Below the pieces are notes generated by a model that saw nothing but the letters and a program-made list of their open reading frames with translations, made no database searches and was not told the origin of the DNA. Below are positions 1,435-47,522 of a DNA stretch of 56,585 nucleotides, piece after piece. The DNA lies in IMG/VR virus record IMGVR_UViG_3300023237_000005. One strand, 5' to 3'. The position numbers and the translations under genes were made by a program. Numbering within the stretch: position 1 is the first letter of the stretch; every line of letters starts with the position of its first letter. This DNA comes from an uncultured virus (IMG/VR IMGVR_UViG_3300023237_000005). Its lineage: Duplodnaviria > Heunggongvirae > Uroviricota > Caudoviricetes.

Positions 1435-1765
1435 GGGGGTGAGTAGTATTTGACAGCAGATGAATACTAAGAGTACAGCATGGGTGATGACCTACATCAA
1501 AACTAAGTGGAAACACTGAACTTGCAATTGCCGCCTAATAGTTAGGTACTAATGCATGCCATACTACAGAGTATACTTGTATGTAGGTTAGGCATTAAAG
1601 GAAGTAAGAACGGCATAAGTATTGGCCCAACTAATACAACATATCATTTGGCAGAATTGATCGAAAGCTGCATATTTTTGGAGTCATAAGAAAATGACTA
1701 TCCTAAGCTGTAAAATATTCTTTTTACTAATCTGTATGGACGAGGAGTCGCTTCCTCCACCTCCA
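1435..1765 (+). ncRNA. ssrA: tmRNA; tag (A)GNTELAIAA* at 1509-1538
   Basis: GGGGGTG pairs with CACCTCC-A including G3.U; 5' TTGAC and 3' GGAC motifs; tag frame gga aac act gaa ctt gca att gcc gcc taa. Confidence 0.93.
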
Positions 1766-1789
1766 CATTGATATATAAACATATATCGC

Positions 1790-2274: not shown

Positions 2275-2322
2275 TATAATGGCCTCCTGGATTTAACGAT
2301 TCAGGAGGCCATTATATTTGTT
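2275..2322 (+). terminator. Strong hairpin, terminator/attenuator-like
   Basis: TATAATGGCCTCCTG ... CAGGAGGCCATTATA followed by TTTGTT. Confidence 0.75.
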
Positions 2323-2411
2323 AATATTAATTTAACAGTACGAATATACAACTAACGAAAATTATTTGTATATTTATGATATTATCTAAAACGATAATAT
2401 GTTCTTTGACA
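2319..2411 (+). promoter_or_regulatory. Promoter with tandem TTAAYA repeats, TATATTT element and downstream boxA-like GTTCTTTGACA
   Basis: Same layout recurs at 5406 and (without boxA) 44248. Confidence 0.55.
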
Positions 2412-2528
2412 TCTTGGAAACCAAAAATGAAAGTAAAGTCCTTAACATTCTGTTCAGGCAGGTATTTTTGGGCGCACCTTCTACGACAGCTAAATTAATA
2501 TGAAGCTCGAGAAAAGCGCCCTATATTT

Positions 2529-2599
2529 TCCCGGATCGTCTAGCGGCAGGACGCCAGTTTTTGGAGCTGGTTACGGAGGTTCGAATCCTTCTCTGGGAA
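2529..2599 (+). tRNA. tRNA-Gln(TTG)
   Basis: TCCCGGA/TCTGGGA acceptor; CCAGT-TTTTGGA-GCTGG; GGAGG-TTCGAAT-CCTTC. Confidence 0.93.
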
Positions 2600-2601
2600 C
2601 A

Positions 2602-2682
2602 TTCAGTGTAGCTTAGATTTTCTCATAAAGGAATTAAAGCGTCTTAGCAATAAGAAGTAAGATGAATTAACATCCACTGAAT
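2602..2682 (+). ncRNA. tRNA-shaped RNA A lacking an anticodon loop
   Basis: TTCAGTG/CACTGAA acceptor; TA; GCTT/AAGC D-stem with 22-nt loop; TCTTA-GCAA-TAAGA; GATG-AATTAA-CATC. Confidence 0.65.
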
Positions 2683-2687
2683 AATAT

Positions 2688-2770
2688 GCAAGTGCGCTAG
2701 AGTTGGAGAGCTAGGATGGTCTGTAACACCGTTGGTTAAGCCTGAGTGGGTTCGATTCCCTCCACTTGCA
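2688..2770 (+). tRNA. tRNA-Tyr(GTA)
   Basis: GCAAGTG/CACTTGC; ATGGT-CTGTAAC-ACCGT; long variable arm; TTCGATT T-loop. Confidence 0.92.
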
Positions 2771-2777
2771 CATTGAA

Positions 2778-2863
2778 TGCGGTTCGATTCCGTAAGCTAT
2801 GAGCTATAACTCGTAGCTGCCAAAAGTAGTATAAAGGTTATTGAGTATTATAGTATTTAGGCA
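2778..2863 (+). ncRNA. Structured RNA starting with an isolated T-arm followed by two hairpins (permuted tRNA-like)
   Basis: TGCGG-TTCGATT-CCGTA; AGCTATGAG-CTATAA-CTCGTAGCT; TGCC...GGCA hairpin. Confidence 0.45.
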
Positions 2864-2909
2864 CTTTATTTACAGAGGCCTCGTGGTGAGGTTCATGATA
2901 TTGATATAA

Positions 2910-2994
2910 GTCCCGTTCGTCTAACCTCCGGAATTAATCCTCCAAACGGACAACAAGCGCTTGTGAATATGAGTATGGAATCTCATGCGGGACC
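2910..2994 (+). ncRNA. tRNA-shaped RNA B lacking an anticodon loop (tRNA-Glu-like 5' end)
   Basis: GTCCCGT/GCGGGAC acceptor; TC; GTC/GAC D-stem with enlarged loop; ACAA-GCGC-TTGT; ATGAG-TATGGAAT-CTCAT. Confidence 0.65.
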
Positions 2995-3002
2995 AAGTAT
3001 AA

Positions 3003-3077
3003 GCGAAAGTAGCTCAGTCTGGCCAGAGCATCAGATTTCCAATCTGAGGGTCGAGAGTTCGAATCTCTTCTTTCGCT
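3003..3077 (+). tRNA. tRNA-Gly(TCC)
   Basis: GCGAAAG/CTTTCGC; TCAGA-TTTCCAA-TCTGA; canonical D and T arms; U73. Confidence 0.95.
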
Positions 3078-3117
3078 CACTATACTATTTTTACCATCTT
3101 CTACTGATATATGCTTC

Positions 3118-3312
3118 ATGGAAGAGGTAAAGAAAGTAAGACATGCTATAAGGCGTAAGTATCATATCATTTATAAAACTACGTGTACTATCACTAATAA
3201 GTTTTATGTTAGTATGCATTCAACAGATAATCTTGAAGATGGTTATCAAGGTTCTGGTAAACGATTAAAATATTCTGTAAATAAGCATGGTATAACACAT
3301 ATTCCTCATTAG
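3118..3312 (+). pseudogene. Truncated Seg-like GIY-YIG homing endonuclease
   Basis: YHIIYKTTC..NKFYVSMHST....GYQGSG; only 64 aa, runs into tRNA-Thr. Confidence 0.75.
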
Positions 3313-3376
3313 CTCAGTTGGCCAGAGCGGTTGTTTTGTAAACAACAGGTCATCGGTTCGAACCCGGTATGAGGAT
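3303..3376 (+). tRNA. tRNA-Thr(TGT)
   Basis: TCCTCAT/ATGAGGA; GTTGT-TTTGTAA-ACAAC; ATCGG-TTCGAAC-CCGGT. Confidence 0.94.
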
Positions 3377-3403
3377 CAATAAATAAAATAAATAAACAAC
3401 GTC

Positions 3404-3895
3404 ATGAAAGTAATTGTACTAAATGCGGATCTACGTCCGATTAATGTTACAACTTTCAAAAAAGGGTTTAAGCTGATTTACAAAGGTAAAGCAGAGGTAC
3501 TTGAAACATATGAGGATGACTACATTGTGACTTACACACGGAAATTTCTTAGGCCAAGGGTTATACGTCTTCTAAACTACGTAAACTTACCATACAGAAA
3601 ATTATCACCAACAAAGAGAAATATCTTCAAGAGAGATAATTTCACTTGTATGTATTGTCCTGGTAAGAAAGACCTAACACTTGACCATGTTCAACCTAAG
3701 TCAAGAGGTGGGAAAGATACTTGGAAGAATCTAGTTACAGCTTGTTCAAAGTGTAACAATAAGAAAGATAATAAGACTCCACAAGAAGCAGGTATGAAAT
3801 TAAGAAAGGCACCAACAGCACCTTCTCTTATGGAATTGCTTGATTTAGATTCTGTGAAGATCTTTGAAAGTCTAGCGAAAGCATACACATATTGA
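3404..3895 (+). CDS. HNH endonuclease (McrA-like)
   Basis: VLNAD..P; RD.FTCMYC; LTLDHVQPKSRGG..TW.NLVTAC..CN..K. Confidence 0.92.
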   Translation: MKVIVLNADLRPINVTTFKKGFKLIYKGKAEVLETYEDDYIVTYTRKFLRPRVIRLLNYVNLPYRKLSPTKRNIFKRDNFTCMYCPGKKDLTLDHVQPKSRGGKDTWKNLVTACSKCNNKKDNKTPQEAGMKLRKAPTAPSLMELLDLDSVKIFESLAKAYTY

Positions 3896-3948
3896 ATTGA
3901 GAATGAAGTAGTATGTAATAAATTTTATGTACTACTTCTATTTTCAAT
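3896..3948 (+). terminator. Long inverted repeat after the HNH gene
   Basis: ATTGAGAATGAAGTAGTATGTAA ... TTATGTACTACTTCTATTTTCAAT. Confidence 0.55.
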
Positions 3949-4015
3949 CTAATTAAGTCAATTGTTATTTCCTTGACTAAAGTCCAATAAATAACATATA
4001 TGAAAATAGTATAAT

Positions 4016-4384
4016 ATGTGGATGGAATTAGTGATGTCGTTATTATTTTTTAGTATTAGTAGTGCTCAGGCACAAACAGTAGAACCACCAGTTGACGCTG
4101 ATGAATTTGGATGGTTACGTTGGGCAGTGATAATATTATCAGGATTAGTACTAACAGGTACTACGGCATTCTTTGCATTTATTAAACTGTCGTTTGAAAC
4201 TCGCATTACTGATAAAGATGAGGAAATAAAAAGATTAACTCATTCAACAGAAGGACAAGCTATAGTTATAGCTAAGCTTCAGAGCGATAAAGATAGCTTA
4301 AATAAGGATATGCAGGATAAAGTTATTCCAGCGTTAACGAGTGCAAGCGATCTTATAAGAACATTTTTAAATAGCGCAAGATAA
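4016..4384 (+). CDS. Membrane protein (signal peptide, TM helix, coiled coil)
   Basis: Hydrophobic N-terminus with AQA site, second hydrophobic helix. Confidence 0.65.
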   Translation: MWMELVMSLLFFSISSAQAQTVEPPVDADEFGWLRWAVIILSGLVLTGTTAFFAFIKLSFETRITDKDEEIKRLTHSTEGQAIVIAKLQSDKDSLNKDMQDKVIPALTSASDLIRTFLNSAR

Positions 4385-4809
4385 TGGAAATAATATCTAC
4401 AGAATTTGTGAGACAGCAGCTTAACGATGCTTGTGCTGATCTTGAAAGTTGCATCCATGAGTTTAGAGTACTATGTGGTACTAACGATTGGAAAGAACAT
4501 ATCATTAATATAACTGATGAGTTCACAGATATATTTCCAGACATTATGGCTAAAGTGATATTTCCAAATAAGAAAACTGGAAATAGGACTATTATGATTA
4601 AGGCTAAAGCAGGATCTAAAATTAATCTACATAAAATGTTACCTCTTAGATTTGTGTATGTAGTACATGGAGACCAACGAGATGAAACCGGTGTGATAGT
4701 TCTAAATGAAGACGAAAGCATGATAATTCAAACATTAGAAGAAAGTTCAATGTATTTTAAAATTGATACTAAGCTTATTATGGAATTTGAAGAAGATGAA
4801 GCAGCATAA
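4384..4809 (+). CDS. Hypothetical protein, possible cupin-like beta-barrel
   Basis: KAGSKINLH...YVVHG pattern; coupled to neighbours. Confidence 0.5.
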   Translation: MEIISTEFVRQQLNDACADLESCIHEFRVLCGTNDWKEHIINITDEFTDIFPDIMAKVIFPNKKTGNRTIMIKAKAGSKINLHKMLPLRFVYVVHGDQRDETGVIVLNEDESMIIQTLEESSMYFKIDTKLIMEFEEDEAA

Positions 4810-5230
4810 TATTGGCACTATACAAGATAATGTAGAAAGTTCTGTAAAGAATCTAACATTTCTTATAGATGAATTTAAACAAGTAAGTACATTATTAGAT
4901 CTGTTAGAACATAAGACGTGTCCTATGTTTGTTACTTATGCTGATGAACACGGTTATTTCAAATATGTTAATCAAAATTTCGCAGATGTATTAGGTTACA
5001 CTAAGAAAGAATTATACAATATTCCTTGGACAGAGTTAATGTCAAAACAAGAAGCTGAAAGAGTATTTAAAGAGTTAAATAAAATACTTAAAGGTGGTGA
5101 AGCATTTACAAACTATAAGACGACCTATAAAACTAAAGACGGTAAAGATATACCGCTTACTTGGTTTACCGGTCCAGTTGGTGAGATGGAAGATCAAACA
5201 GTTGCAATCTGTTTCGCATACTCACACTAA
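4796..5230 (+). CDS. Stand-alone PAS domain protein
   Basis: YVNQNFADVLGYTKKEL and YKTKDGKDIPL PAS/PAC signatures; ATG at 4796 in frame with ORF 4763. Confidence 0.85.
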   Translation: MKQHNIGTIQDNVESSVKNLTFLIDEFKQVSTLLDLLEHKTCPMFVTYADEHGYFKYVNQNFADVLGYTKKELYNIPWTELMSKQEAERVFKELNKILKGGEAFTNYKTTYKTKDGKDIPLTWFTGPVGEMEDQTVAICFAYSH

Positions 5231-5260
5231 TTTCAAATTTCAACAATTTTATTTAATTAT

Positions 5261-5336
5261 CAGGCAGTAGAGGAGTCCGGTTTATCTCGACGCATTTGGG
5301 GTGCGTAGTACGTGAGTTCGAATCTCACCTGCCTGA
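5261..5336 (+). tRNA. tRNA-Pro(TGG)
   Basis: CAGGCAG/CTGCCTG; ACGCA-TTTGGGG-TGCGT; GTGAG-TTCGAAT-CTCAC. Confidence 0.93.
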
Positions 5337-5405
5337 CTATTTTTACCATCTTCTAATGGTATACAATTGGAAGAAAGATGAACTTCTAATCTGTATCACC
5401 TTCAT

Positions 5406-5498
5406 TGTTAACATTAAATTAACATTGGGGGATGTATAAGTAAGCATTTAATAGTGTATATTGATAATGTCAATAAAACTGATGGTGGTTCTTTAAAA
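5406..5498 (+). promoter_or_regulatory. Promoter with TGTTAACATTAAATTAACA repeat, TATATTG element and boxA-like GTTCTTTAAAA
   Basis: Near-identical spacing to the 2319 element. Confidence 0.55.
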
Positions 5499-5503
5499 CA
5501 TAC

Positions 5504-5737
5504 ATGGTGGAACATATAGATAAGAAAGGTAAAGTAACATGGAAGGCTGTTAATTTGAGTGATAGATCATCTGGGCATGGTCCAATTGATATTACTACTG
5601 GGCAGTTGTATTACAACCTCTATTTAATGATGACAGATGCAACTAATCGTTCACTTAAAATAGCATCTGCATTAGACAGTTTACAATCAAAAACTAATGA
5701 AGTTGCACTAAAAGCAATTTTAGCTAAGAAATTCTAA
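5504..5737 (+). CDS. Hypothetical protein
   Basis: ORF track; follows promoter. Confidence 0.5.
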   Translation: MVEHIDKKGKVTWKAVNLSDRSSGHGPIDITTGQLYYNLYLMMTDATNRSLKIASALDSLQSKTNEVALKAILAKKF

Positions 5738-6002
5738 AAGAAGGTTCAGTAAATGATTATTATGTTATATTCTATTAGTAATTCGATTGAGACGGACAGA
5801 AGGAAAGATTAGAAAACATTAAATTACTGATAACGGTTTCAACAATTTAAAAGCGTTGTTATTATTACTACAGATTGAATAAAATATTGAATTAATTTTA
5901 CTTTTAATTTAAGGCAACTTAGCGGTTACTTAATAAGTGCGGGCTCGGAACTCGGATTGATGTTAAAGTAAAGATGGTGTGGATCCAAGCACTAATTCAT
6001 TC

Positions 6003-6013
6003 GTTCTTTGAAA
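6003..6013 (+). promoter_or_regulatory. boxA-like antitermination motif
   Basis: GTTCTTTGAAA just upstream of the large ncRNA. Confidence 0.5.
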
Positions 6014-6014
6014 T

Positions 6015-6985
6015 TATAAGCATTGGGAGGTTTAAGTTCCAATCAGCCTATCGGTTGACGTGAAACAGTTCGGCTGTCAATAAAATCATAGGTTGAAAAA
6101 AGAATAAGAATCTGCAAAGATTCAGAAAGGGGGAAGTGTTACACTAACCCGCCTAATTCGTTAGGTTCGTTTAAGCAAGTGACGTCTTAATTGCCACCTA
6201 GGCAAGACTTCGATACCAATCGGAGGATAAGCAGAAAGTTAGAGTTGTTGTCCCTTAGGAAAGGATACTACCAGAGCCGGTCGGTGAGGTACAATATTAT
6301 AGAGGTATAATAGCAGCAACATACCAATCTAATAAGTGCTAAATTGGATAAGTCATAGGATATGAGTCTAAGTTGATTACTAAAACGAAGGCAAGTAACC
6401 AATTTAAGAGAAGAAAGGATAGTTAAATATCCAAAGTAATCTTGAAGAATTGCACATAAGACTTAGTAAGTCTAAAACGCATAGAGGTGTGTTGTATTTT
6501 GAATCTCAAAAGGATTTAGATCAGCTGTCAGGGCACGTCTCAGTAACTTAAATAACATTAATTGTTAGCTCAGTTGGTAGAGCTCCTGTATTCTAAACAG
6601 GTTGTCGGTGGTTCAAATCCTCCACAATTGTATAAATGAAAACGCAAAGGCCTTGACACTAGTAGGAAAGCAAATTACCTAAGCCCAAAGTTCTTCGGAG
6701 CAATTTGGGATCACAGAAACTCGCAAAGTGAAAGTGATTTAATTTAAGTCTGCATCAAATCATCGTAGCGATGGTGAATGGCTCGCAAGGTCAGGAGAAT
6801 GATAAAAGTTGAGTAGACCTGCTATGGATAAGAGTATAGCCTCTCTTTAAAAAAGGCGGTAATGTTGGCAAACATTTTTGAGCTGCAAAGCTGAGAATGT
6901 GGATAAGATGAGAACCTATTGGAATAAGCCCTGATTGGATAATACATCGAAGGTGTTAACGTACAACGTGTAATCTCAACGTTTT
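6015..6985 (+). ncRNA. Large structured ncRNA, GOLLD-like, with embedded tRNA (boundaries approximate)
   Basis: ~1 kb without ORFs inside a tRNA array; many GNRA/UUCG-capped hairpins; CTCAAAAGG; GTTGAG pairing with 3' CTCAAC; internal tRNA. Confidence 0.7.
6559..6631 (+). tRNA. Atypical tRNA, anticodon TCT (Arg-like), inside the large ncRNA
   Basis: TAATTGT/ACAATTG; GCTC-AGTTGGTA-GAGC; CCTGT-ATTCTAA-ACAGG; GGTGG-TTCAAAT-CCTCC. Confidence 0.75.
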
Positions 6986-7018
6986 AAAACTTTTACAGTC
7001 AAACGAATAACGTAATAT

Positions 7019-7091
7019 CGCGGAGAAGAGCAAATGGGTGTTCGCTAGGCTCATAACCTAGAGGTTGTCGGTTCGAGTCCGACCTCCGCAA
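7019..7091 (+). tRNA. tRNA-Met(CAT), initiator type
   Basis: C1.A72 mismatch (CGCGGAG/CTCCGCA); CTAGG-CTCATAA-CCTAG. Confidence 0.92.
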
Positions 7092-7121
7092 CAGTCACAT
7101 TTCAGAATTAATATATAGCTA

Positions 7122-7973
7122 ATGAAAAGTCTATTTTTATTACTGTTTACACTTTTAGTTTCAGGTTGTTCAACTATGCATAGTGCATACGATGAACATT
7201 ATGTCATTGACCAGCCGCAAGTAGTTGAAGTTCAACATGTTCCGGTTTATGATAGTTATTATAACAATACGAATGCTTTCATCATTCGGTATTATTACCC
7301 TTACTTAATTTATTCTCAGCCGTATTATTGGAACAGTTGTAGGCATTATCATCATTCTCGCTATTATAATTATAGTTGTCCACATTATTACAATTCGTAC
7401 TATAATTGTTATGTATATACCGGGTATAGTAACTTTGGATCTTATGGAGTTCCTGGACCTCATTATAATGGTTGGGATGTAGTATATAGTAGAACTTATT
7501 ATGGGCATCGGCAGATGTGGTATAGCACGGTACCGTTGATGTCGAGAATAGCCAGAAGTACTAAGCCTGAGGTACGACAACAAGCTACACCTATTAGGCG
7601 AGACGTTAAACCTCAACGACAGTTAGAACCAAAGCCAGAAATTAGACACCAGCCTCAACGACAGGTTGAAAGACAACCACAGCCAGAAATTAGACACCAG
7701 CCTCAACGACAGTTACAGCCAAAGCCAGAAATTAGACACCAGCCTCAACGACAGTTACAGCCAAAGCCAGAAATTAGACACCAGCCTCAACGACAGTTGC
7801 AGCCAAAGCCAGAAATTAGACACCAGCCTCAACGACAAGTTGAAAGACAACACCAGCCTCAACGACAAGTTACACCTCAACAACAGCAATATAGAAGGCC
7901 TAGGACTCAGACTCAATATCCTAAGGTAATACCTATTAAAACATCGACGTTAAATCAAAAGCGTCCAAGATAA
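7122..7973 (+). CDS. Lipoprotein with Tyr-rich region and Gln/Pro/Arg-rich repeat tail
   Basis: Lipobox-like VSGC after a hydrophobic signal; PEIRHQPQRQ repeats. Confidence 0.8.
   Translation: MKSLFLLLFTLLVSGCSTMHSAYDEHYVIDQPQVVEVQHVPVYDSYYNNTNAFIIRYYYPYLIYSQPYYWNSCRHYHHSRYYNYSCPHYYNSYYNCYVYTGYSNFGSYGVPGPHYNGWDVVYSRTYYGHRQMWYSTVPLMSRIARSTKPEVRQQATPIRRDVKPQRQLEPKPEIRHQPQRQVERQPQPEIRHQPQRQLQPKPEIRHQPQRQLQPKPEIRHQPQRQLQPKPEIRHQPQRQVERQHQPQRQVTPQQQQYRRPRTQTQYPKVIPIKTSTLNQKRPR
7611..7872 (+). repeat. Coding tandem repeat, ~42-bp unit (QPKPEIRHQPQRQL), 5 copies plus partial
   Basis: Repeated ccaaagccagaaattagacaccagcctcaacgacag. Confidence 0.9.
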
Positions 7974-7977
7974 AGAT

Positions 7978-8244
7978 ATGGAATTAATATGCATATTTGC
8001 TATCATTTGTACACATTGGGTTACAGACTTCGTCTTTCAAGATGAAAAATGGGCACTTGGAAAAAGTAAAAGCAATAGAGAACTTCTAAAGCATACGATA
8101 ACGTATTCACTGTTATTATTTCCTTTAGCAATCTTTCTCGGTTGGAATATCATTCCATTCATACTTATCAATTTTATATTGTATAGTTATATTACAACAG
8201 AATTAAATAAACGAAATGAAAAAACCAGAGGTAATGACAGATGA
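7978..8244 (+). CDS. DUF3307-like membrane protein, probably truncated
   Basis: HWVTDFVFQ...K....LL.H...Y motif. Confidence 0.6.
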   Translation: MELICIFAIICTHWVTDFVFQDEKWALGKSKSNRELLKHTITYSLLLFPLAIFLGWNIIPFILINFILYSYITTELNKRNEKTRGNDR

Positions 8245-8452
8245 GCAGCTGCTCGAATGTAAACAATTCCTGGACTATTTTAGGGTTAAGTACGATGGTA
8301 AAGTCATTGAAATTAACTCGGGTGGAAATGGCATGGTTTTTAGAACTGATGGTAAGTTTTCTGAAAACTTTGTTGGATGTTCAATTAATAGTATTGCAGA
8401 AGCAGTAGCTAGAAAATTAGGAAAGAAAATACAAAGAGAACAAGAATACTAA
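8216..8452 (+). CDS. Hypothetical protein
   Basis: ORF track. Confidence 0.55.
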   Translation: MKKPEVMTDEQLLECKQFLDYFRVKYDGKVIEINSGGNGMVFRTDGKFSENFVGCSINSIAEAVARKLGKKIQREQEY

Positions 8453-8459
8453 AATATAC

Positions 8460-8526
8460 GGTGGATGTAGTGGTAACACGACTGCTTGTGGTGCAGTTAT
8501 CGAGGGTTCAACTCCCTTCGTCTACC
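8460..8526 (+). tRNA. tRNA-His(GTG) with G-1 and shortened D-arm
   Basis: G-1/C73; GTGGATG/CGTCTAC; ACTGC-TTGTGGT-GCAGT; D-arm only GTG-GTAA-CAC. Confidence 0.85.
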
Positions 8527-8528
8527 CA

Positions 8529-8694
8529 AAAGAAGAGAAGTAGTTAAAGCTGTTAGGTTAACAAACTCAGATATACTTGAGTCACTGTAATGCTGCACTG
8601 GGAGAATGACCCACTTACGAACAAAGGTTAATAGTAGTAAGACAGAGTTTATAGCAAACCAGTAACCTCGAAAGACCCGAAGCTTCTCTTCTTT
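8529..8694 (+). ncRNA. 166-nt structured RNA of unknown class between tRNA-His and tRNA-Cys
   Basis: Perfect 12-bp closing stem AAAGAAGAGAAG/CTTCTCTTCTTT; internal AAACTC/GAGTTT and AGGTTA/TAACCT pairings. Confidence 0.6.
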
Positions 8695-8700
8695 ATTATT

Positions 8701-8773
8701 GGTCGCGTGGCCGAGTGGCTTTAGGCATAGGACTGCAAATCCTACTACGTGTGTTCGACTCACACCGCGACCT
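8701..8773 (+). tRNA. tRNA-Cys(GCA)
   Basis: GGTCGCG/CGCGACC; TAGGA-CTGCAAA-TCCTA; U73. Confidence 0.95.
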
Positions 8774-8859
8774 CAATCTCATATTTATCATTATTTTTAC
8801 ATCTAAAATGTACAAGCTATGACAATAATAGTTATATTGATAATATAAATAAAGCTGAT

Positions 8860-22581: not shown

Positions 22582-23304
22582 ATGTCAAGTAAATTTCACA
22601 CAGATTCAATCTACAAAGAGAAGAGAAGACCAAAAACTCCAATAAAGTTTAAAATACAACTTAATGATGAGCAGAAAGCAGCAAAGGAAATCGCGCTTAA
22701 TCATACACTAACAGTATTGGCTGGCAAAGCAGGAAGTGGTAAAACACTATTAGCTTGCCAGATTGCATTAGACGGATTGTTCAACAAAAGATTTGAAAAG
22801 ATTATCATTACCAGACCTACGGTTTCTAAAGAAGAGATTGGATTCTTACCTGGGGACCTTAAAGATAAAATGGATCCTTGGGTTCAACCGATCTATCAAA
22901 ATATGTACATTCTTTATGGGAAAGAGAAAATTGATAAGTACATTGAAAACGACCTAATTGAAATTGTACCCCTTAGTTTTATGAGGGGGCGAACTTTTCT
23001 AGATGCATGTTTAGTTTGGGGTGAAAGTATTTTAACTGCTACTGGGTATATTAAAGTTGAAGATATTTTATCTGATGCATTAGCTGGAACATTCCATGAG
23101 GTTCTATCTTATAATATTAAAACCGATTCCACAGAATATAAGTTATTAGACACAATATCTCCGACTAACATCGAATCATATATTGAAGTAGAATTAGAAG
23201 ATGGTACAATAGCAAAAACATCAGAACATCATGTATTCTATACTAGCCGTGGTTTGATAGAGGCAAAAGACCTATGCATAGATGATATGATACTTTCATT
23301 ATAG
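22582..23304 (+). CDS. phoH: PhoH N-terminal half fused to split intein N-part (intein 23008-23301, 98 aa)
   Basis: GKAGSGKT, TRP, GFLPG, FMRGRTF, then C-LVWGESI (block A) and TSEHH (block B), then stop. Confidence 0.92.
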   Translation: MSSKFHTDSIYKEKRRPKTPIKFKIQLNDEQKAAKEIALNHTLTVLAGKAGSGKTLLACQIALDGLFNKRFEKIIITRPTVSKEEIGFLPGDLKDKMDPWVQPIYQNMYILYGKEKIDKYIENDLIEIVPLSFMRGRTFLDACLVWGESILTATGYIKVEDILSDALAGTFHEVLSYNIKTDSTEYKLLDTISPTNIESYIEVELEDGTIAKTSEHHVFYTSRGLIEAKDLCIDDMILSL

Positions 23305-23335
23305 GTGACGATAGACTTATAATGATATATACTAT

Positions 23336-24691
23336 ATGAAAGAATTTTATGTATATGTCTATCTTAATCCACGAGTTAAAAAATCATATACAATAAGTAA
23401 ATTCACATCAGAGTACGAACCATTTTATGTAGGTAAGGGTAAAAACAATAGACTTTATGATCACTTAAGGCCAAATATGCTAAAGATTTCTAATCATAGA
23501 TACAATTTGCTTAGTTCAATTATTGATGATATAGGCATAGATGCATATAAAAAGAATTTCATCGTTAAGATAGATGATAAGTTGTCTAATAATACAGCAC
23601 TAAGCTTAGAGGGTTTGATAATGAAAGAAATTGGTACGTATTATGATATTCATCCAGATATTAAGCCAGGCCCACTTCTAAATTTCACATTAGCTGGAGT
23701 AGAAAATCCAATATTATATGGTGCAAACAATGCAATGTACAACAAATCAATAGTTGATATATGGAAAAGTAAGCACAATATAGAGACAGTGAAAAAATTA
23801 GAAGAAGATTATTCATTAAAACAATCAAATTCTGGTACTATTAGATGGCAAGATATTAAAGCAGATGATTTAAAATATGAAGAAATTTGCAAAAATATAA
23901 ATGCCGGAGTACATAGGTATTGGGATTCGTTATCTGTTGAAGATAGAATTTTGGTCTCTAATACAAGGTCAGCTAACTTTAAGACATTTTATAAAAAGTA
24001 TGGGACTATTGAAAATTATTACATTGAAACTTATGGGTTAGTGGAAGGTGTAAGACTAGAAGAAGAAAGGAGAAAAAACATAAGCAAAGGACTTATTAGT
24101 TTTTGGGATACTGTAGACGATGAATTCAAAAGAGTACATTCTTTAAAAACATCATTAGGGCTTCGCAAGTTTTTAAAGAAGCATGGTTCAGTTAATGAGT
24201 ACCTGCTTGATAAGTTAGGACCGGAGAAATTCAAAGAAAGGCAAGATAGCATGAAGCATAACCAATCTGTTTCGGGTAAACGAAGGTGGGCACATATGTC
24301 AATTGCTGAAAGAGAAAGCTTAAAGCAAAAGAAACGTGATACATATAAGAAATTTATAGAGTCTATGTCAACAATAGAATATCAACAATACAAAGCTAAA
24401 CACTCAGGAGAAAATAACCCAATGTATAATATGGGCAAATTAGTGAGTGGAAGTAAAAATGGAAGAGCTACACAGTGGATTGCACATCTTCCCAATGGTG
24501 ATAGATATTATTGTGATGGGACGTTTAAAGCGTTCTGTAGAACTGTATTAAGAAAATACAAGCCACACCCTCATAGAAAGTATATGGATGAAATATTAAA
24601 ATACGACACTCCAGTTTTTGGTTGGTATTTTAAAAGAGTAGATAGAGATTTTGATTATCTCGCAGAAAAATACATAAAATATGAAAAGTAA
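23336..24691 (+). mobile_element. Free-standing GIY-YIG-type homing endonuclease between the phoH halves
   Basis: FYVYVY...PFYVGKG..NR...H; NUMOD3-like SGENNPMY and SGSKNG motifs. Confidence 0.85.
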
Positions 24692-25070
24692 AAAGATTAA
24701 AAGTATTAGAATAATTCACGCCCCAACTATAAAATATTCTGTCAATGTACAGGATAATCATAACTATTTTTCGACCGGGGATATATTATCTAAAAACTGT
24801 ATCATTGTAGATGAAGCTCAGAACGTAACAGCAGAACAGATGGAAATGATCGTAACTCGTATTGGACTTAGAAGTAAAATGATTGTATGTGGTGACGATG
24901 GTCAAGTAGATCTAAGAAGAAGCGGAGATTCTGGATTTAGATTTCTCTACAATGCTGCTAATAAGATTAAAAGCCTTGCAGCTGTATCTTTACTTCAAAA
25001 CCACAGAGATCCGATTGTAGATGATCTTATTGATTTATATGAGGCAGAAGAGCAAAACAAAAAGAAGTAA
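24681..25070 (+). CDS. phoH: Split intein C-part (24681-24797, 39 aa) fused to PhoH C-terminal half
   Basis: KIKSI...YSVNVQDNHNYF...SKN|C followed by IIVDEAQN, TRIG, CGD..Q.D, NHR.PIV. Confidence 0.92.
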   Translation: MKSKKIKSIRIIHAPTIKYSVNVQDNHNYFSTGDILSKNCIIVDEAQNVTAEQMEMIVTRIGLRSKMIVCGDDGQVDLRRSGDSGFRFLYNAANKIKSLAAVSLLQNHRDPIVDDLIDLYEAEEQNKKK

Positions 25071-46713: not shown

Positions 46714-46947
46714 ATGCTGAATAAGAAACTGAAGATATTACTCAAAACAGATTATAAGAAGATAGCCAAGACTATTAAATCTATCCATGACAAAAAAGAA
46801 TGTGGGATGGGTTCTAAGATAATGCTATATCGTGCAACTACACGAATGATTACTAACTTTCAAAATAATTTGGAATTTCGATTACCATTTGGACATGATA
46901 TTTCTAAACGTGTCGATGAATTGATAGAATATAATAACGAACGATGA
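46714..46947 (+). CDS. Hypothetical protein
   Basis: ORF track. Confidence 0.55.
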   Translation: MLNKKLKILLKTDYKKIAKTIKSIHDKKECGMGSKIMLYRATTRMITNFQNNLEFRLPFGHDISKRVDELIEYNNER

Positions 46948-47522
46948 AAAAGATTATATTTTTAGATCACGATGGTGTTGTTTGTTTATATGACGAGCAG
47001 GGTGGACGAATTAAAAAATGGAAAGCTGCTGGTTTTACTAGAGGCTTGAATAATGATATTCTAAGAACTATACCAATAGAAAGTAGATTTGATGCTTTTA
47101 ATAAGAAGGCTGTAAATGTTCTTAATAGCATTATTGAAAAAACTGATGCTGAAATTGTCGTTACTTCTGATTGGAGAAAATGGGCAACACTTGAAGAAAT
47201 GCAAGAGCTATATAAGCATTATGGTGTTATTAAATCACCAATTGGATATACACCATTTGCAAAAGATCTTGATGATGGATTTGATTATGCATTCATGCCA
47301 GATCGTTACAGATTGGAAATTGCCAGATGTGCAGAAATTACTGAATGGCTTAGAATAAATAAATCAGATAAGTGGGTTGCTGTAGATGATCTTGATCTCT
47401 CTTCTGATACCTGGTCAGGATTTAAGTTCGGCCTTGATAATTTTGTAGAAACACCACGACTTCTTGAAGGCATTAAGCAATCTGGAAAAGCAGAGAGAGT
47501 AATAAAATTTCTTACAGATTAA
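46944..47522 (+). CDS. HAD domain protein (Swiss Army Knife RNA-repair type)
   Basis: IIFLDHDGV; IVVTSDWR; R..EI..W; WVAVDD. Confidence 0.85.
   Translation: MKKIIFLDHDGVVCLYDEQGGRIKKWKAAGFTRGLNNDILRTIPIESRFDAFNKKAVNVLNSIIEKTDAEIVVTSDWRKWATLEEMQELYKHYGVIKSPIGYTPFAKDLDDGFDYAFMPDRYRLEIARCAEITEWLRINKSDKWVAVDDLDLSSDTWSGFKFGLDNFVETPRLLEGIKQSGKAERVIKFLTD

What the first reader, a model, noticed from the sequence alone, without database searches (positions are those of the whole stretch)
2602..2994. Candidate new class: anticodon-less, elbow-remodelled tRNA-shaped RNAs alternating with real tRNAs
Seen: two elements of different primary sequence (2602-2682 and 2910-2994) occupy their own slots in the tRNA array and share the same departures from tRNA. 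Each has a fully paired 7-bp acceptor stem, 2-nt linker, D-stem, anticodon stem, variable region and T-stem. In both, the anticodon loop is a 4-nt loop (GCAA; GCGC), the D-loop is enlarged to >20 nt and contains GGAATTAA, and the TTCG T-loop is lost. Inference: parallel loop remodelling with preserved helices argues against random decay. They could be non-decoding tRNA mimics, such as decoys or inhibitors of host tRNA-targeting defence nucleases or synthetases, or cargo of the nearby GOLLD-like RNA. Standard tRNA finders would likely miss them. The function is speculative.
Basis: partly seen in the sequence, partly recalled or inferred. Interest (0 to 1): 0.88.

Follow-up and report, generated by a model that had tools for sequence, protein, structure and literature searches.

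The report
Anticodon-less tRNA-shaped RNAs in a phage
Two tRNA-sized genes in a salt-lake phage's tRNA cluster keep every tRNA stem but have no anticodon loop, and relatives show that at least one is held in shape by selection, so they look like working tRNA look-alikes of unknown job rather than dead genes.

Summary
Window 2602-2682 (A) and 2910-2994 (B) fold as cloverleaves with 7-bp acceptor stems, 4-nt caps (GCAA, GCGC) where the anticodon loop should be, 22-25 nt inside the D stem, and no TTCG T loop. ARAGORN and Rfam's tRNA model miss both.

B is a real, constrained RNA. A diverged homologue (L019/L015) keeps the same loops, while 9 of 24 base pairs changed on both sides, at least one in each of the five helices. 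The extra D-region letters form a covarying hairpin, not a loop.

A is known only from the window's phage and one 94% relative. There it shows one compensatory pair, one wobble change and GCAA to GUAA, so support is weaker.

A and B are not detectably related beyond tRNA shape. The shared GGAATTAA is not conserved in B's homologue.

The ends of B look most like Glu/Gln-type tRNAs. A looks most like tRNA-Thr(UGU).

No further members turned up in any collection searched, and no RNA data exist. Best reading: tRNA-derived, non-decoding tRNA-like RNAs, excised with the tRNAs. The decoy role is inferred only. This is a new variant of the phage tRNA-cluster "stable RNA" kind.

The parts
2602..2682 (+). 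Element A, 81 nt. Acceptor stem 2602-2608/2675-2681. Outer D stem 2611-2614/2637-2640. Inner D hairpin about 2619-2623/2629-2633. Arm 2642-2646/2651-2655 capped by GCAA (2647-2650). T stem 2661-2664/2671-2674 with 6-nt loop AATTAA.
   Evidence: The MFE fold is a cloverleaf with z -2.8 to -3.4. ARAGORN and Rfam tRNA give no hit. Compared with L014: pair 3-78 changes C-G to G-C, pair 43-52 changes U-A to U-G, and the cap changes GCAA to GUAA. Model R2 finds it only in the window, L013 and L014.
2910..2994 (+). Element B, 85 nt. Acceptor stem 2910-2916/2987-2993. Outer D stem 2919-2922/2948-2951. Inner D hairpin 2930-2933/2940-2943. Arm 2953-2956/2961-2964 capped by GCGC (2957-2960). T stem 2969-2973/2982-2986 with 8-nt loop TATGGAAT (2974-2981).
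   Evidence: The MFE fold is a cloverleaf. Homologues are L014 3121-3205 and L019 1249-1333 (= L015 36-120). 97.2% of cells are paired, 9 of 24 pairs changed on both sides, and 0 of 500 shuffles reach this. Model R1 scores are 102-107 bits.
2927..2929 (+). Candidate tertiary partner in B's D-arm internal loop (UCC), pairing with 2977-2979 (GGA) of the T loop.
   Evidence: This is one of only three contacts of 3 bp or more between unpaired regions that hold in all three sequences. It carries one change on both sides (C-G to U-A). A single event, so a hypothesis only.
2529..2600 (+). tRNA-Gln(UUG). It ends 1 nt before A.
   Evidence: ARAGORN and Rfam.
2688..2771 (+). tRNA-Tyr(GUA). It starts 5 nt after A.
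   Evidence: ARAGORN. Rfam 34.9 bits in the local scan.
2772..2909 (+). Spacer before B with hairpins and an orphan canonical T arm (GCGGTTCGATTCCGT, about 2778-2792). Probably debris of a lost tRNA.
   Evidence: Read from the sequence. Fold z -2.16. 10 differences in 138 nt against L014.
3003..3078 (+). tRNA-Gly(UCC). It starts 8 nt after B.
   Evidence: ARAGORN and Rfam.
2275..2316 (+). Terminator-like hairpin closing the upstream unit. No convincing terminator-like site lies between it and the HNH gene: the two other consensus matches fall inside tRNA-Gln and inside the HNH gene. A and B therefore probably share a transcript with the tRNAs.
   Evidence: Consensus scan. The hairpin is conserved in L014, L019, L006 and L017.
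2398..2430 (+). Conserved block GTTCTTTGACATCTTGGAA(A/G)CCAAA upstream of the array. Possibly a promoter or processing signal.
   Evidence: Invariant in 5 of 5 aligned relatives. The exact 19-mer occurs in 50 IMG/VR stretches.

Best explanation
A and B are tRNA-derived genes that no longer decode.

Expression and processing (inferred):
- They lie on the + strand in full tRNA slots, 1-8 nt from their neighbours.
- They are probably transcribed with the flanking tRNAs.
- They keep a paired acceptor stem stacked on a T stem, which is the helix that RNase P and the 3'-end enzymes read. They should therefore be cut out as stable RNAs of about 81 and 85 nt.

Structure:
- A 4-nt cap replaces the 7-nt anticodon loop, so no codon can be read (shown).
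- An extra hairpin lengthens the D arm (shown for B).
- The canonical T loop is gone. In B, a 3-bp contact between the D-arm internal loop and the T loop may rebuild the elbow (inferred, one covariation).
- Selection keeps the fold. This is shown for B and suggested for A.

Most likely role (inferred): a non-decoding tRNA look-alike that occupies a protein recognising the tRNA body. That protein could be a processing or modification enzyme, a synthetase, or a host tRNA-directed defence nuclease.

My odds:
- Constrained structured RNA: about 0.8 for B and 0.55 for A.
- Excised like a tRNA: about 0.6.
- Decoy or competitor role specifically: about 0.3.
For: Structure and selection in B:
- Three distinct sequences (window, L014, L019) give 24 pairs with 97.2% of cells paired.
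- 9 pairs changed on both sides, at least one in each of the 5 helices. 0 of 500 shuffles reach this, and slid controls give 0-2 such pairs and 27-50% pairing.
- The loops (GCGC cap, TATGRAAT) are conserved while the stems change.
- Against the 94% relative, B has 2 differences in 85 nt (2.4%). The spacer has 7.2% and the upstream region 6.6%. Both B changes keep a pair.
- G-U pairs fit only the + strand.

Element A:
- All changes within helices keep or gain pairing (C-G to G-C, U-A to U-G, U.U to A-U).
- The cap stays GNRA (GCAA to GUAA).

Contrast with real decay:
- L019 1435-1499 is a partial tRNA covering Rfam model positions 5-66 (43.2 bits).
- It has canonical loops and no acceptor stem.

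tRNA ancestry:
- After the family itself, model R1 hits tRNA-Glu (5 loci) and tRNA-Gln (1 locus) at 22.6-23.6 bits, and tRNA-Glu at 20.4 bits.
- 13 of B's first 16 nt match tRNA-Glu of L006 and L112.
- Model R2's best tRNA is L006 tRNA-Thr(UGU) at 24.8 bits. Its loop CUUGUAA aligns with A's cap after a 3-nt gap.

Slot geometry:
- Gaps to neighbouring tRNAs are 1, 5 and 8 nt in the window, and 3 and 8 nt in L019.
- Only consensus false positives inside tRNA-Gln and the HNH gene score as terminators in the array.

Stability: four DNA runs of other samples show no variant inside A or B.
Against: - No RNA evidence of any kind.
- Only 3 distinct B-type and 2 distinct A-type sequences exist, so no formal covariation statistics such as R-scape are possible.
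- A diverges from L014 at the background rate (7 of 81, 8.6%) and loses acceptor pair 1-80 there.
- For A, the shuffle control is uninformative (248 of 500).
- B's own fold energy is not unusual (z -1.26).
- The tRNA parentage is soft. With filters off, R1 scores tRNA-Arg(CCU) 21.2, Glu 20.4, Lys 20.0 and Asp 19.7 bits in L006.
- A decoy without an anticodon loop could not bind nucleases or synthetases that read the anticodon.
- Pfam found no partner protein in the 56-kb window: no synthetase, CCA-adding enzyme or Ro.
- The related lineage L006/L017 does without these elements. There tRNA-Gln is followed directly by tRNA-Trp.
Confidence: 0.5

Rival explanations
1. Cis-acting processing or stability modules. 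The cloverleaves exist only to give RNase P and the 3' nucleases well-spaced cleavage sites, or to protect the polycistronic tRNA precursor. The released RNAs have no job of their own.
For: They fill tRNA slots with tRNA-like spacing. They keep the acceptor/T-stem helix. Their composition drifts towards the genome's: A is 0.31 GC and C is 0.38, against a genome of 0.34-0.36 and tRNAs near 0.5.
Against: The neighbouring tRNAs already supply processing sites. The related arrays L006/L017 pack tRNAs 3-6 nt apart without such modules. Covariation also covers the inner D hairpin and the capped arm, which RNase P does not need, and the loop sequences are conserved.
Confidence: 0.2
2. Dying tRNA genes. 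They are pseudogenes caught in decay, with helices surviving by chance or by too little elapsed time.
For: The array holds debris: an orphan T arm near 2778-2792, a truncated GIY-YIG gene at 3118-3312, and a tmRNA with a damaged T loop. A evolves at the background rate. The lineage is narrow.
Against: For B, 9 of 24 pairs were replaced on both sides while the loops stayed fixed. Neutral decay does not do that. The real decayed tRNA in L019 shows the reverse pattern. In A, a C-G to G-C swap occurred within a 94% relative.
Confidence: 0.15
3. Aberrant but decoding tRNAs. The inner D hairpin is the true anticodon arm (A has CTCATAA, a CAU-type loop) and the capped arm is a long variable arm.
For: A's inner loop can be drawn as C-U-CAU-A-A closed by TTTT/AGGA. 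ARAGORN at an 80% threshold calls L019 1249-1333 a 'tRNA-?(ta)' in this way.
Against: That drawing ignores the outer D stem, which covaries (pair 12-40, C-G to U-A). The B/C inner loop is 6 nt (8 nt if the A.C pair is open) and reads TTAATC versus TTTATC, so no anticodon is conserved. In A and L014 the more stable pairing leaves a 5-nt loop. ARAGORN default, mitochondrial and intron modes do not call A or B.
Confidence: 0.04
4. Partner or cargo of the GOLLD RNA (6482-6982) in the same array.
For: They are co-located in one array. The GOLLD cryo-EM preprint speculates that the cages might hold phage tRNAs (passages of 10.1101/2024.12.08.627333 seen).
Against: Nothing links them beyond being 3.5 kb apart. 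No GOLLD was among the Rfam matches on the 2.3-kb contig L019 (E<=1), but that contig ends inside the HNH gene, so this is uninformative. L006 has no Rfam GOLLD hit and also lacks the elements.
Confidence: 0.04
5. Chance folds in AT-rich spacer DNA.
For: The shape descriptor matches roughly once per 25-50 kb by chance. B's z-score is only -1.26.
Against: Homologues covary. Only family members abut tRNAs among 35 descriptor hits.
Confidence: 0.02

Closest known systems
Phage T4 rnaC and rnaD ('species 1' and 'species 2' small stable RNAs) in the T4 tRNA cluster
   Same: Non-tRNA RNA genes sitting in a phage tRNA cluster next to a GIY-YIG homing endonuclease gene, annotated as small stable RNAs. 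Their function is still unknown (recalled).
   Different: They are 139 and 119 nt, not tRNA-sized. rnaC keeps a canonical T arm (CCGGGUUCGAAUCCCGG) and folds differently. There is no similarity: R1 scores 8.5 bits (E 0.64) on rnaC and R2 at most 5.2 bits, both below T4's real tRNAs.
Canonical tRNA (Rfam RF00005)
   Same: 7-bp acceptor stem, 2-nt linker, 4-bp D stem, 4-5-bp arm, 4-5-nt variable region, 4-5-bp T stem. The elements occupy tRNA slots. Their end sequences resemble Glu/Gln-type (B) and Thr-type (A) tRNAs.
   Different: No 7-nt anticodon loop and no TTCRA T loop. The D arm carries an extra hairpin. No Rfam hit at E<=10 and no ARAGORN call.
Bacterial and viral non-decoding tRNA look-alikes: Bacillus cereus tRNA-Other, murine gammaherpesvirus 68 tRNA-like RNAs, mammalian mascRNA
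   Same: tRNA-shaped RNAs processed like tRNAs but not used for decoding. This is recalled. tRNA-Other is mentioned in passages of PMC5389517, and the herpesvirus RNAs only in the reference list of PMC6409571.
   Different: Different organisms and no sequence relation was tested. As I recall, those keep a more tRNA-like T loop, and none has the extended D arm plus tetraloop cap seen here.
Irregular tRNAs (8/4 and 9/3 'allo-tRNAs') of bacteria and phages
   Same: Non-standard cloverleaves in phage tRNA clusters that standard finders miss (abstract and passages of PMC5389517). In the window, A can be drawn with an 8-bp acceptor and a 4-bp T stem.
   Different: Those RNAs have anticodons and were shown to be charged and used in translation (passages). 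A and B have no anticodon loop. In L014, A's acceptor stem is 6 bp.
Bacterial Y RNA YrlA (tRNA-mimicking partner of Ro60)
   Same: A non-coding RNA that mimics a tRNA and binds a protein (title and abstract of PMC4201824, listing).
   Different: No Rfam match of any Y-RNA family at E<=10, and no TROVE/Ro protein among 91 window proteins. As I recall, YrlA keeps canonical D and T loops.

Membership tests
tRNA (RF00005 / ARAGORN definition) | Score at or above the Rfam gathering threshold (29 bits), or an ARAGORN call | tested here: not met
   No tRNA-clan match on A or B even at E<=10. ARAGORN default, -ps90, -mt and -i modes call neither. Only B's homologue in L019 is called, at -ps80, as 'tRNA-?(ta)'.
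tRNA (RF00005 / ARAGORN definition) | 7-nt anticodon loop with U33 and a purine at 37 | tested here: not met
   The loops are 4 nt: GCAA/GUAA in A and GCGC in B and C.
tRNA (RF00005 / ARAGORN definition) | 7-nt T loop of the T-Psi-C type (TTCRANN) | tested here: not met
   A has AATTAA (6 nt). B has TATGGAAT and C has TATGAAAT (8 nt).
tRNA (RF00005 / ARAGORN definition) | Cloverleaf helices: 7-bp acceptor stem plus D, anticodon and T stems | tested here: met
   MFE folds. Covariation in all five helices of B. A's acceptor stem is only 6 bp in L014.
T4-type tRNA-cluster stable RNAs (rnaC/rnaD) | Encoded inside a phage tRNA cluster and not itself a tRNA | tested here: met
T4-type tRNA-cluster stable RNAs (rnaC/rnaD) | Sequence or structure homology to rnaC or rnaD | tested here: not met
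   R1 and R2 on the T4 locus: at most 8.5 and 5.2 bits on rnaC, and nothing on rnaD. The folds differ.
T4-type tRNA-cluster stable RNAs (rnaC/rnaD) | Accumulates as a discrete stable RNA processed from the tRNA precursor | not testable with these tools
   No RNA run holds the stretch. Needs Northern blots or small-RNA sequencing.
tRNA pseudogene | Neutral decay: substitutions break helices as often as they hit loops | tested here: not met
   For B/C, 97.2% of cells are paired with 9 of 24 compensated pairs. For A, the result is inconclusive with only two sequences.
Y RNA / YrlA | Rfam match and a neighbouring Ro60 (TROVE) gene | tested here: not met
   No such Rfam match. No TROVE domain among 91 proteins.

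The most novel reading that the evidence does not exclude
One phage lineage has converted two different tRNAs into the same new design. One parent was of the Glu/Gln type and the other of the Thr type. In both, the anticodon loop was cut down to a stable tetraloop, the D arm was lengthened by a hairpin, and the elbow was re-wired by Watson-Crick pairs to a new T loop. The products would be dedicated non-decoding tRNA mimics. They would act in trans on host or phage tRNA-binding proteins, for instance as uncleavable decoys of tRNA-directed defence nucleases. This would be a class of phage counter-defence RNA not yet described.
Probability: 0.2. Interest if true: 0.8.

Novelty: new variant of a known kind. 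Interest (0 to 1): 0.6.

Why it matters
Phage tRNA clusters are now seen as weapons against host defences that cut tRNAs, yet only their decoding tRNAs have been studied. This window holds tRNA-derived genes that cannot decode, and at least one of them is kept in shape by selection. If these RNAs are made and bind a protein, they would show that phages also evolve tRNA bodies for non-translational jobs. They would also offer a natural example of a tRNA elbow rebuilt from different parts. They show too that tRNA finders and Rfam leave real, constrained RNAs unannotated inside tRNA arrays. The present case is small: one lineage in salt-lake metagenomes, three plus two distinct sequences, and no expression data.

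Tried and rejected
Searches and look-ups that gave nothing:
- Own genome: none is held for this window.
- Expression: no RNA holder is listed among 21 runs.
- Population variants: contigs of 4 DNA runs laid on 2300-3400 showed no variant inside A or B, so they added no covariation data.
- INPHARED phages, blastn: 166 records matched. The 20 rows listed all lay on the GIY-YIG fragment (query 866-995), and none covered A or B.
- Exact and degenerate patterns: a 21-mer from A in IMG/VR gave 0. The B/C loop motif gave 0 in IMG/VR and 0 in genome contigs.
- A looser motif gave 14 stretches in IMG/VR. Model R1 then found 1 match in them, at 14.5 bits with several non-standard pairs, so I judged them chance matches.
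- 50 IMG/VR stretches carry the array's upstream 19-mer. In the 48 searched, R1 found only ordinary tRNA-Glu and tRNA-Gln at 23.6 bits or less, plus four matches of 13 bits or less.
- Model R2 on 67 sources (469,360 bases) found only the window, L013 and L014, plus three matches of 14.2 bits or less.
- The exonuclease-based loci L001-L005 either end before the array or carry no tRNA genes (only a tmRNA in L003).

Readings rejected:
- GGAATTAA as a shared functional motif. It is not conserved in C and sits in different structural places in A and B.
- The inner D hairpin as an anticodon arm.
- A and B as homologues of each other. R1 scores A at 10.2 bits, no better than ordinary tRNAs. R2 does not list B at E<=1.
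- tRNA-Glu as the certain parent of B. With filters off, four tRNAs of different identities score 19.7-21.2 bits.

Literature: six full-text searches found no description of anticodon-less, tetraloop-capped tRNA-like genes in phage arrays. The library lacks most subscription journals, and I did not look at supplements. The supplementary tables of PMC10690425, which list about 10,000 candidate viral RNAs, could hold this motif.
Full report
**What is there**

The window is part of a large phage. Pfam finds topoisomerase II subunits, thymidylate synthase, two sigma factors, a ClpB-like ATPase and PhoH. GC content is 0.34-0.36. Coded DNA runs labelled salt-lake metagenome hold the stretch.

A + strand tRNA array runs from 2529 to 8774:
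- ARAGORN finds 9 tRNAs.
- Rfam finds a GOLLD RNA at 6482-6982.

Element A (2602-2682) lies between tRNA-Gln and tRNA-Tyr. Element B (2910-2994) lies 8 nt before tRNA-Gly(UCC).

- The minimum-free-energy fold of each is a cloverleaf.
- The arm in the anticodon position ends in 4 nt (GCAA in A, GCGC in B).
- The D stem encloses 22 nt in A and 25 nt in B.
- The T loops are AATTAA and TATGGAAT.
- ARAGORN does not call them.
- Rfam's tRNA model gives no match even at E<=10 in a local scan.

**Is the shape more than chance?**

Shape alone is not enough:
- A folds better than its shuffles: z -2.81, or -3.44 with one more pair.
- B does not: z -1.26, with 21 of 200 shuffles folding as well.
- A descriptor written after the fact hits 6 places on the window's two strands. 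It requires a 7-bp acceptor stem, 2-nt linker, 4-bp D stem, 7-32 nt inside, a 4-5-bp arm with a 4-nt loop, and a 4-5-bp T stem with a 6-8-nt loop, with G-U pairs allowed. Four of the six hits lie elsewhere in the window, in stretches that one search lists as long ORFs.
- The same descriptor hits 35 places in 1,377,208 bases of related loci.
- Among those 35, the only hits that abut a tRNA gene are copies or homologues of A and B.

**Relatives**

No whole genome is held for the window. The neighbouring HNH gene (3404-3895) brought in these loci:

| Locus | Relation to the window |
|---|---|
| L013 | 99.9% identical over 1102 nt, so the same phage |
| L014 | 94.2% identical over 1003 nt, covering both elements |
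| L019 and L015 | HNH 84% and 80% identical, flanks about 78% |
| L006, L016, L017, L018 | HNH 70% identical |

In L019 the order is Gln, a 96-nt gap, Tyr, an 83-nt gap, Gly(UCC), Thr(GGU), an 85-nt gap, Pro, Thr(UGU), then HNH.

The first gap holds an 85-nt element, C (L019 1249-1333 = L015 36-120). It aligns with B without a single gap.
- The GCGC cap and its flanks (AAGCGCTT), the T loop (TATGRAAT) and much of the D-arm interior are kept.
- The stems differ.

In the L006/L017 lineage tRNA-Gln is followed directly by tRNA-Trp, and no such element is found.

**Covariation in B/C**

I wrote a five-helix structure on the three distinct sequences (window, L014, L019). The results:
- 97.2% of 72 cells form standard pairs.
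- 9 of 24 pairs changed on both sides: acceptor 1, outer D stem 1, inner D hairpin 2, capped arm 2, T stem 3.
- 0 of 500 column shuffles reach either figure.
- Sliding the 3' partners by 1-3 columns gives 27-50% pairing and 0-2 such pairs.

Further points:
- The two differences between the window and L014 inside B both keep a pair (A-U to G-U, and U-G to U-A).
- B differs from L014 at 2.4% of positions. The spacer before it differs at 7.2% and the upstream region at 6.6%.
- The G-U pairs would be A.C mismatches on the other strand, so the RNA is read from the + strand.
- The '>20-nt D loop' is therefore an extra hairpin (window 2930-2933/2940-2943) set on a 7-nt/4-nt internal loop.

I also listed every contact of 3 bp or more between unpaired regions that holds in all three sequences. 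There are three. One joins the D-arm internal loop (positions 18-20) to the T loop (68-70) and carries a C-G to U-A change. It recalls the D-loop/T-loop pairing that forms the tRNA elbow, but it rests on a single event.

**Element A**

Only the window/L013 and L014 carry it. Model R2 finds it nowhere else in 67 sources.

The two versions differ at 7 of 81 positions, which is the background rate. The changes are:
- Pair 3-78: C-G to G-C.
- Pair 43-52: U-A to U-G.
- A swap at positions 16-17 (A to T, then T to A), whose second change turns a U.U into A-U in the inner hairpin.
- The cap changes from GCAA to GUAA, both GNRA tetraloops.
- Position 1 changes so that the first acceptor pair is lost in L014.

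With two sequences the shuffle control says nothing (248 of 500). A compensated transversion within a 94% relative is suggestive, no more.

**A and B are not the same family**

- R1 (built from B/C) scores A at 10.2 bits. In the same stretch it scores tRNA-Gln 19.6, tRNA-Gly 12.0 and tRNA-Thr 9.7.
- R2 (built from A) does not list B at E<=1, although it lists four ordinary tRNAs.
- The shared GGAATTAA is the 3' strand of the inner hairpin in A. In B it is the 5' strand plus part of the loop, and in C it reads GAGGTTTA.

What A and B share is a design, not sequence.

**Ancestry**

For B:
- With default filters, R1's best non-family hits are tRNA-Glu(UUC) genes: 20.4 bits in L006 and L017, and 23.5-23.6 bits in five IMG/VR loci. 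One tRNA-Gln scores 22.6 bits (with coordinates checked).
- B's first 16 nt match tRNA-Glu of L006 and L112 at 13 positions.
- With filters off on L006, tRNA-Arg(CCU) 21.2, Glu 20.4, Lys 20.0 and Asp 19.7 bits are nearly level. 'Glu/Gln-type' is therefore a best guess.

For A:
- R2's best tRNA is L006 tRNA-Thr(UGU) at 24.8 bits. The next best is Phe at 20.2 bits.
- In that alignment the tRNA's anticodon loop CUUGUAA matches A's GUAA/GCAA cap after a 3-nt gap.
- On phage T4 the best hits are tRNA-Pro (20.8 bits) and tRNA-Thr (19.5 bits).

If the two parents really differ, the same remodelling happened twice. That would be the most interesting aspect, but it is not established.

**Contrast with real decay**

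The array and its relatives do contain wrecks:
- An orphan canonical T arm near 2778-2792.
- A truncated GIY-YIG gene at 3118-3312.
- In L019, a partial tRNA at 1435-1499. Rfam scores it 43.2 bits over model positions 5-66, and ARAGORN's mitochondrial mode calls it Ala(UGC). It keeps canonical loops but has no acceptor stem.

Decay there removes stems and leaves loops. A and B show the reverse.

**How they probably work**

- Shown: cloverleaf helices under selection (B), no anticodon loop, no canonical T loop, + strand, tRNA-slot spacing.
- Inferred: co-transcription with the tRNAs. The consensus scan finds a terminator-like hairpin at 2275-2316, and otherwise only matches inside tRNA-Gln and inside the HNH gene.
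- Inferred: excision by RNase P and 3' nucleases through the retained acceptor/T-stem helix.
- Inferred: a trans-acting role as a tRNA-body mimic.

I favour a competitor or decoy for a tRNA-binding protein. The whole fold is conserved, including parts that processing does not need, and so are the loop sequences. Even so, I put this role at only about 0.3.

Three points count against it:
- An anticodon-reading enzyme could not be fooled.
- No partner gene is evident among 91 proteins.
- A sister lineage lacks the elements.

**Comparison with known systems**

- The nearest precedent is phage T4's rnaC and rnaD. These are small stable RNAs annotated inside its tRNA cluster beside segB.
- They are longer (139 and 119 nt), and rnaC keeps a canonical T arm.
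- My models do not match them.
- Other non-decoding tRNA look-alikes (tRNA-Other, gammaherpesvirus tRNA-like RNAs, mascRNA, YrlA) are analogies recalled or seen only in passages or listings.
- A survey of candidate structured RNAs in IMG/VR reports 'tRNA or tRNA-like' motifs in general terms (abstract and passages of PMC10690425). I did not look at its supplementary tables.
- Six literature searches found no description of this design.

**Verdict**

- B and its homologue form a small RNA family that is not in Rfam and is supported by covariation.
- A is a probable second example with thin support.
- The function is unknown. The decoy idea is neither supported nor excluded.
- I rate this a new variant of a known kind, with interest 0.6.

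Noticed in passing
window 1435-1768 (+): A tmRNA gene with tag reading GNTELAIAA*. ARAGORN and the whole-window Rfam gathering scan both missed it, but a local scan found it at 51.6 bits against a threshold of 47. Its T loop is 2 nt shorter than in L014, L006 and L003 (GAGGAGTC--GCTTCCTC against GAGGGGTTCGATTCCCTC).
   Followed up: partly
window 3118-3312 (+): A 64-aa ORF that resembles the N-terminal part of T4-type segD GIY-YIG homing endonucleases (blastn about 72% over about 130 nt). It appears truncated and lies between tRNA-Gly and tRNA-Thr.
   Followed up: partly
window 2401-2419 (+); loci L093-L142: The 19-mer GTTCTTTGACATCTTGGAA is invariant upstream of the array in 5 of 5 relatives and occurs in 50 IMG/VR stretches. 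In many of them a tRNA gene starts only 7 nt after it, which is too close for it to be that tRNA's promoter. Its start also matched the 5' end of Rfam's DUF2693 RNA weakly (16.4 bits).
   Followed up: partly
L019 1435-1499 (= L015 about 222-286): A partial tRNA (Rfam 43.2 bits, model positions 5-66; ARAGORN mitochondrial mode calls it Ala-UGC). It has normal loops but no acceptor stem, and lies in the slot before tRNA-Gly.
   Followed up: partly
window 8528-8700 (+): A 173-nt spacer between tRNA-His and tRNA-Cys that folds at -39.7 kcal/mol, closed by a 13-bp stem (AAAGAAGAGAAG...CTTCTCTTCTTT). L013 keeps it with a few changes. No Rfam match.
   Followed up: no
L006 8354-8518 (= L017 3878-4042): A 165-nt element between tRNA-Glu and tRNA-Lys, closed by TTGAC/GTCAA. 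It holds two T-arm-like hairpins (GAGAGGTTCGAAACTCTC and AGGGTTCGAGTCCCT). No tRNA finder calls it.
   Followed up: no
window 22582-25067 (+): The PhoH gene is split. The N-terminal part is at 22582-23301 and the C-terminal part at 24681-25067. A 451-aa ORF with a LEM-3-like GIY-YIG domain lies between them, which suggests a homing-endonuclease insertion.
   Followed up: no
window 7092-8454 compared with L013 7902-10772: L013 is otherwise 99.9% identical over 2300-3400, but it carries two extra tRNA-Ser genes between tRNA-Met and tRNA-His, and further tRNA-Trp and tRNA-Met genes after tRNA-Cys. The array therefore varies in content within one phage population.
   Followed up: no
window 46944-47519 (+): A 192-aa protein with the HAD domain of 'Swiss Army Knife' RNA-repair proteins (Pfam E 6e-21). 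This is a possible link to tRNA damage and repair in this phage.
   Followed up: no
L019 1664-1748 (= L015 451-535): An 85-nt gap between tRNA-Thr(GGU) and tRNA-Pro holds two hairpins, one with a TGGGAAT loop resembling B's T loop. There is no acceptor stem, and models R1 and R2 do not match it.
   Followed up: partly
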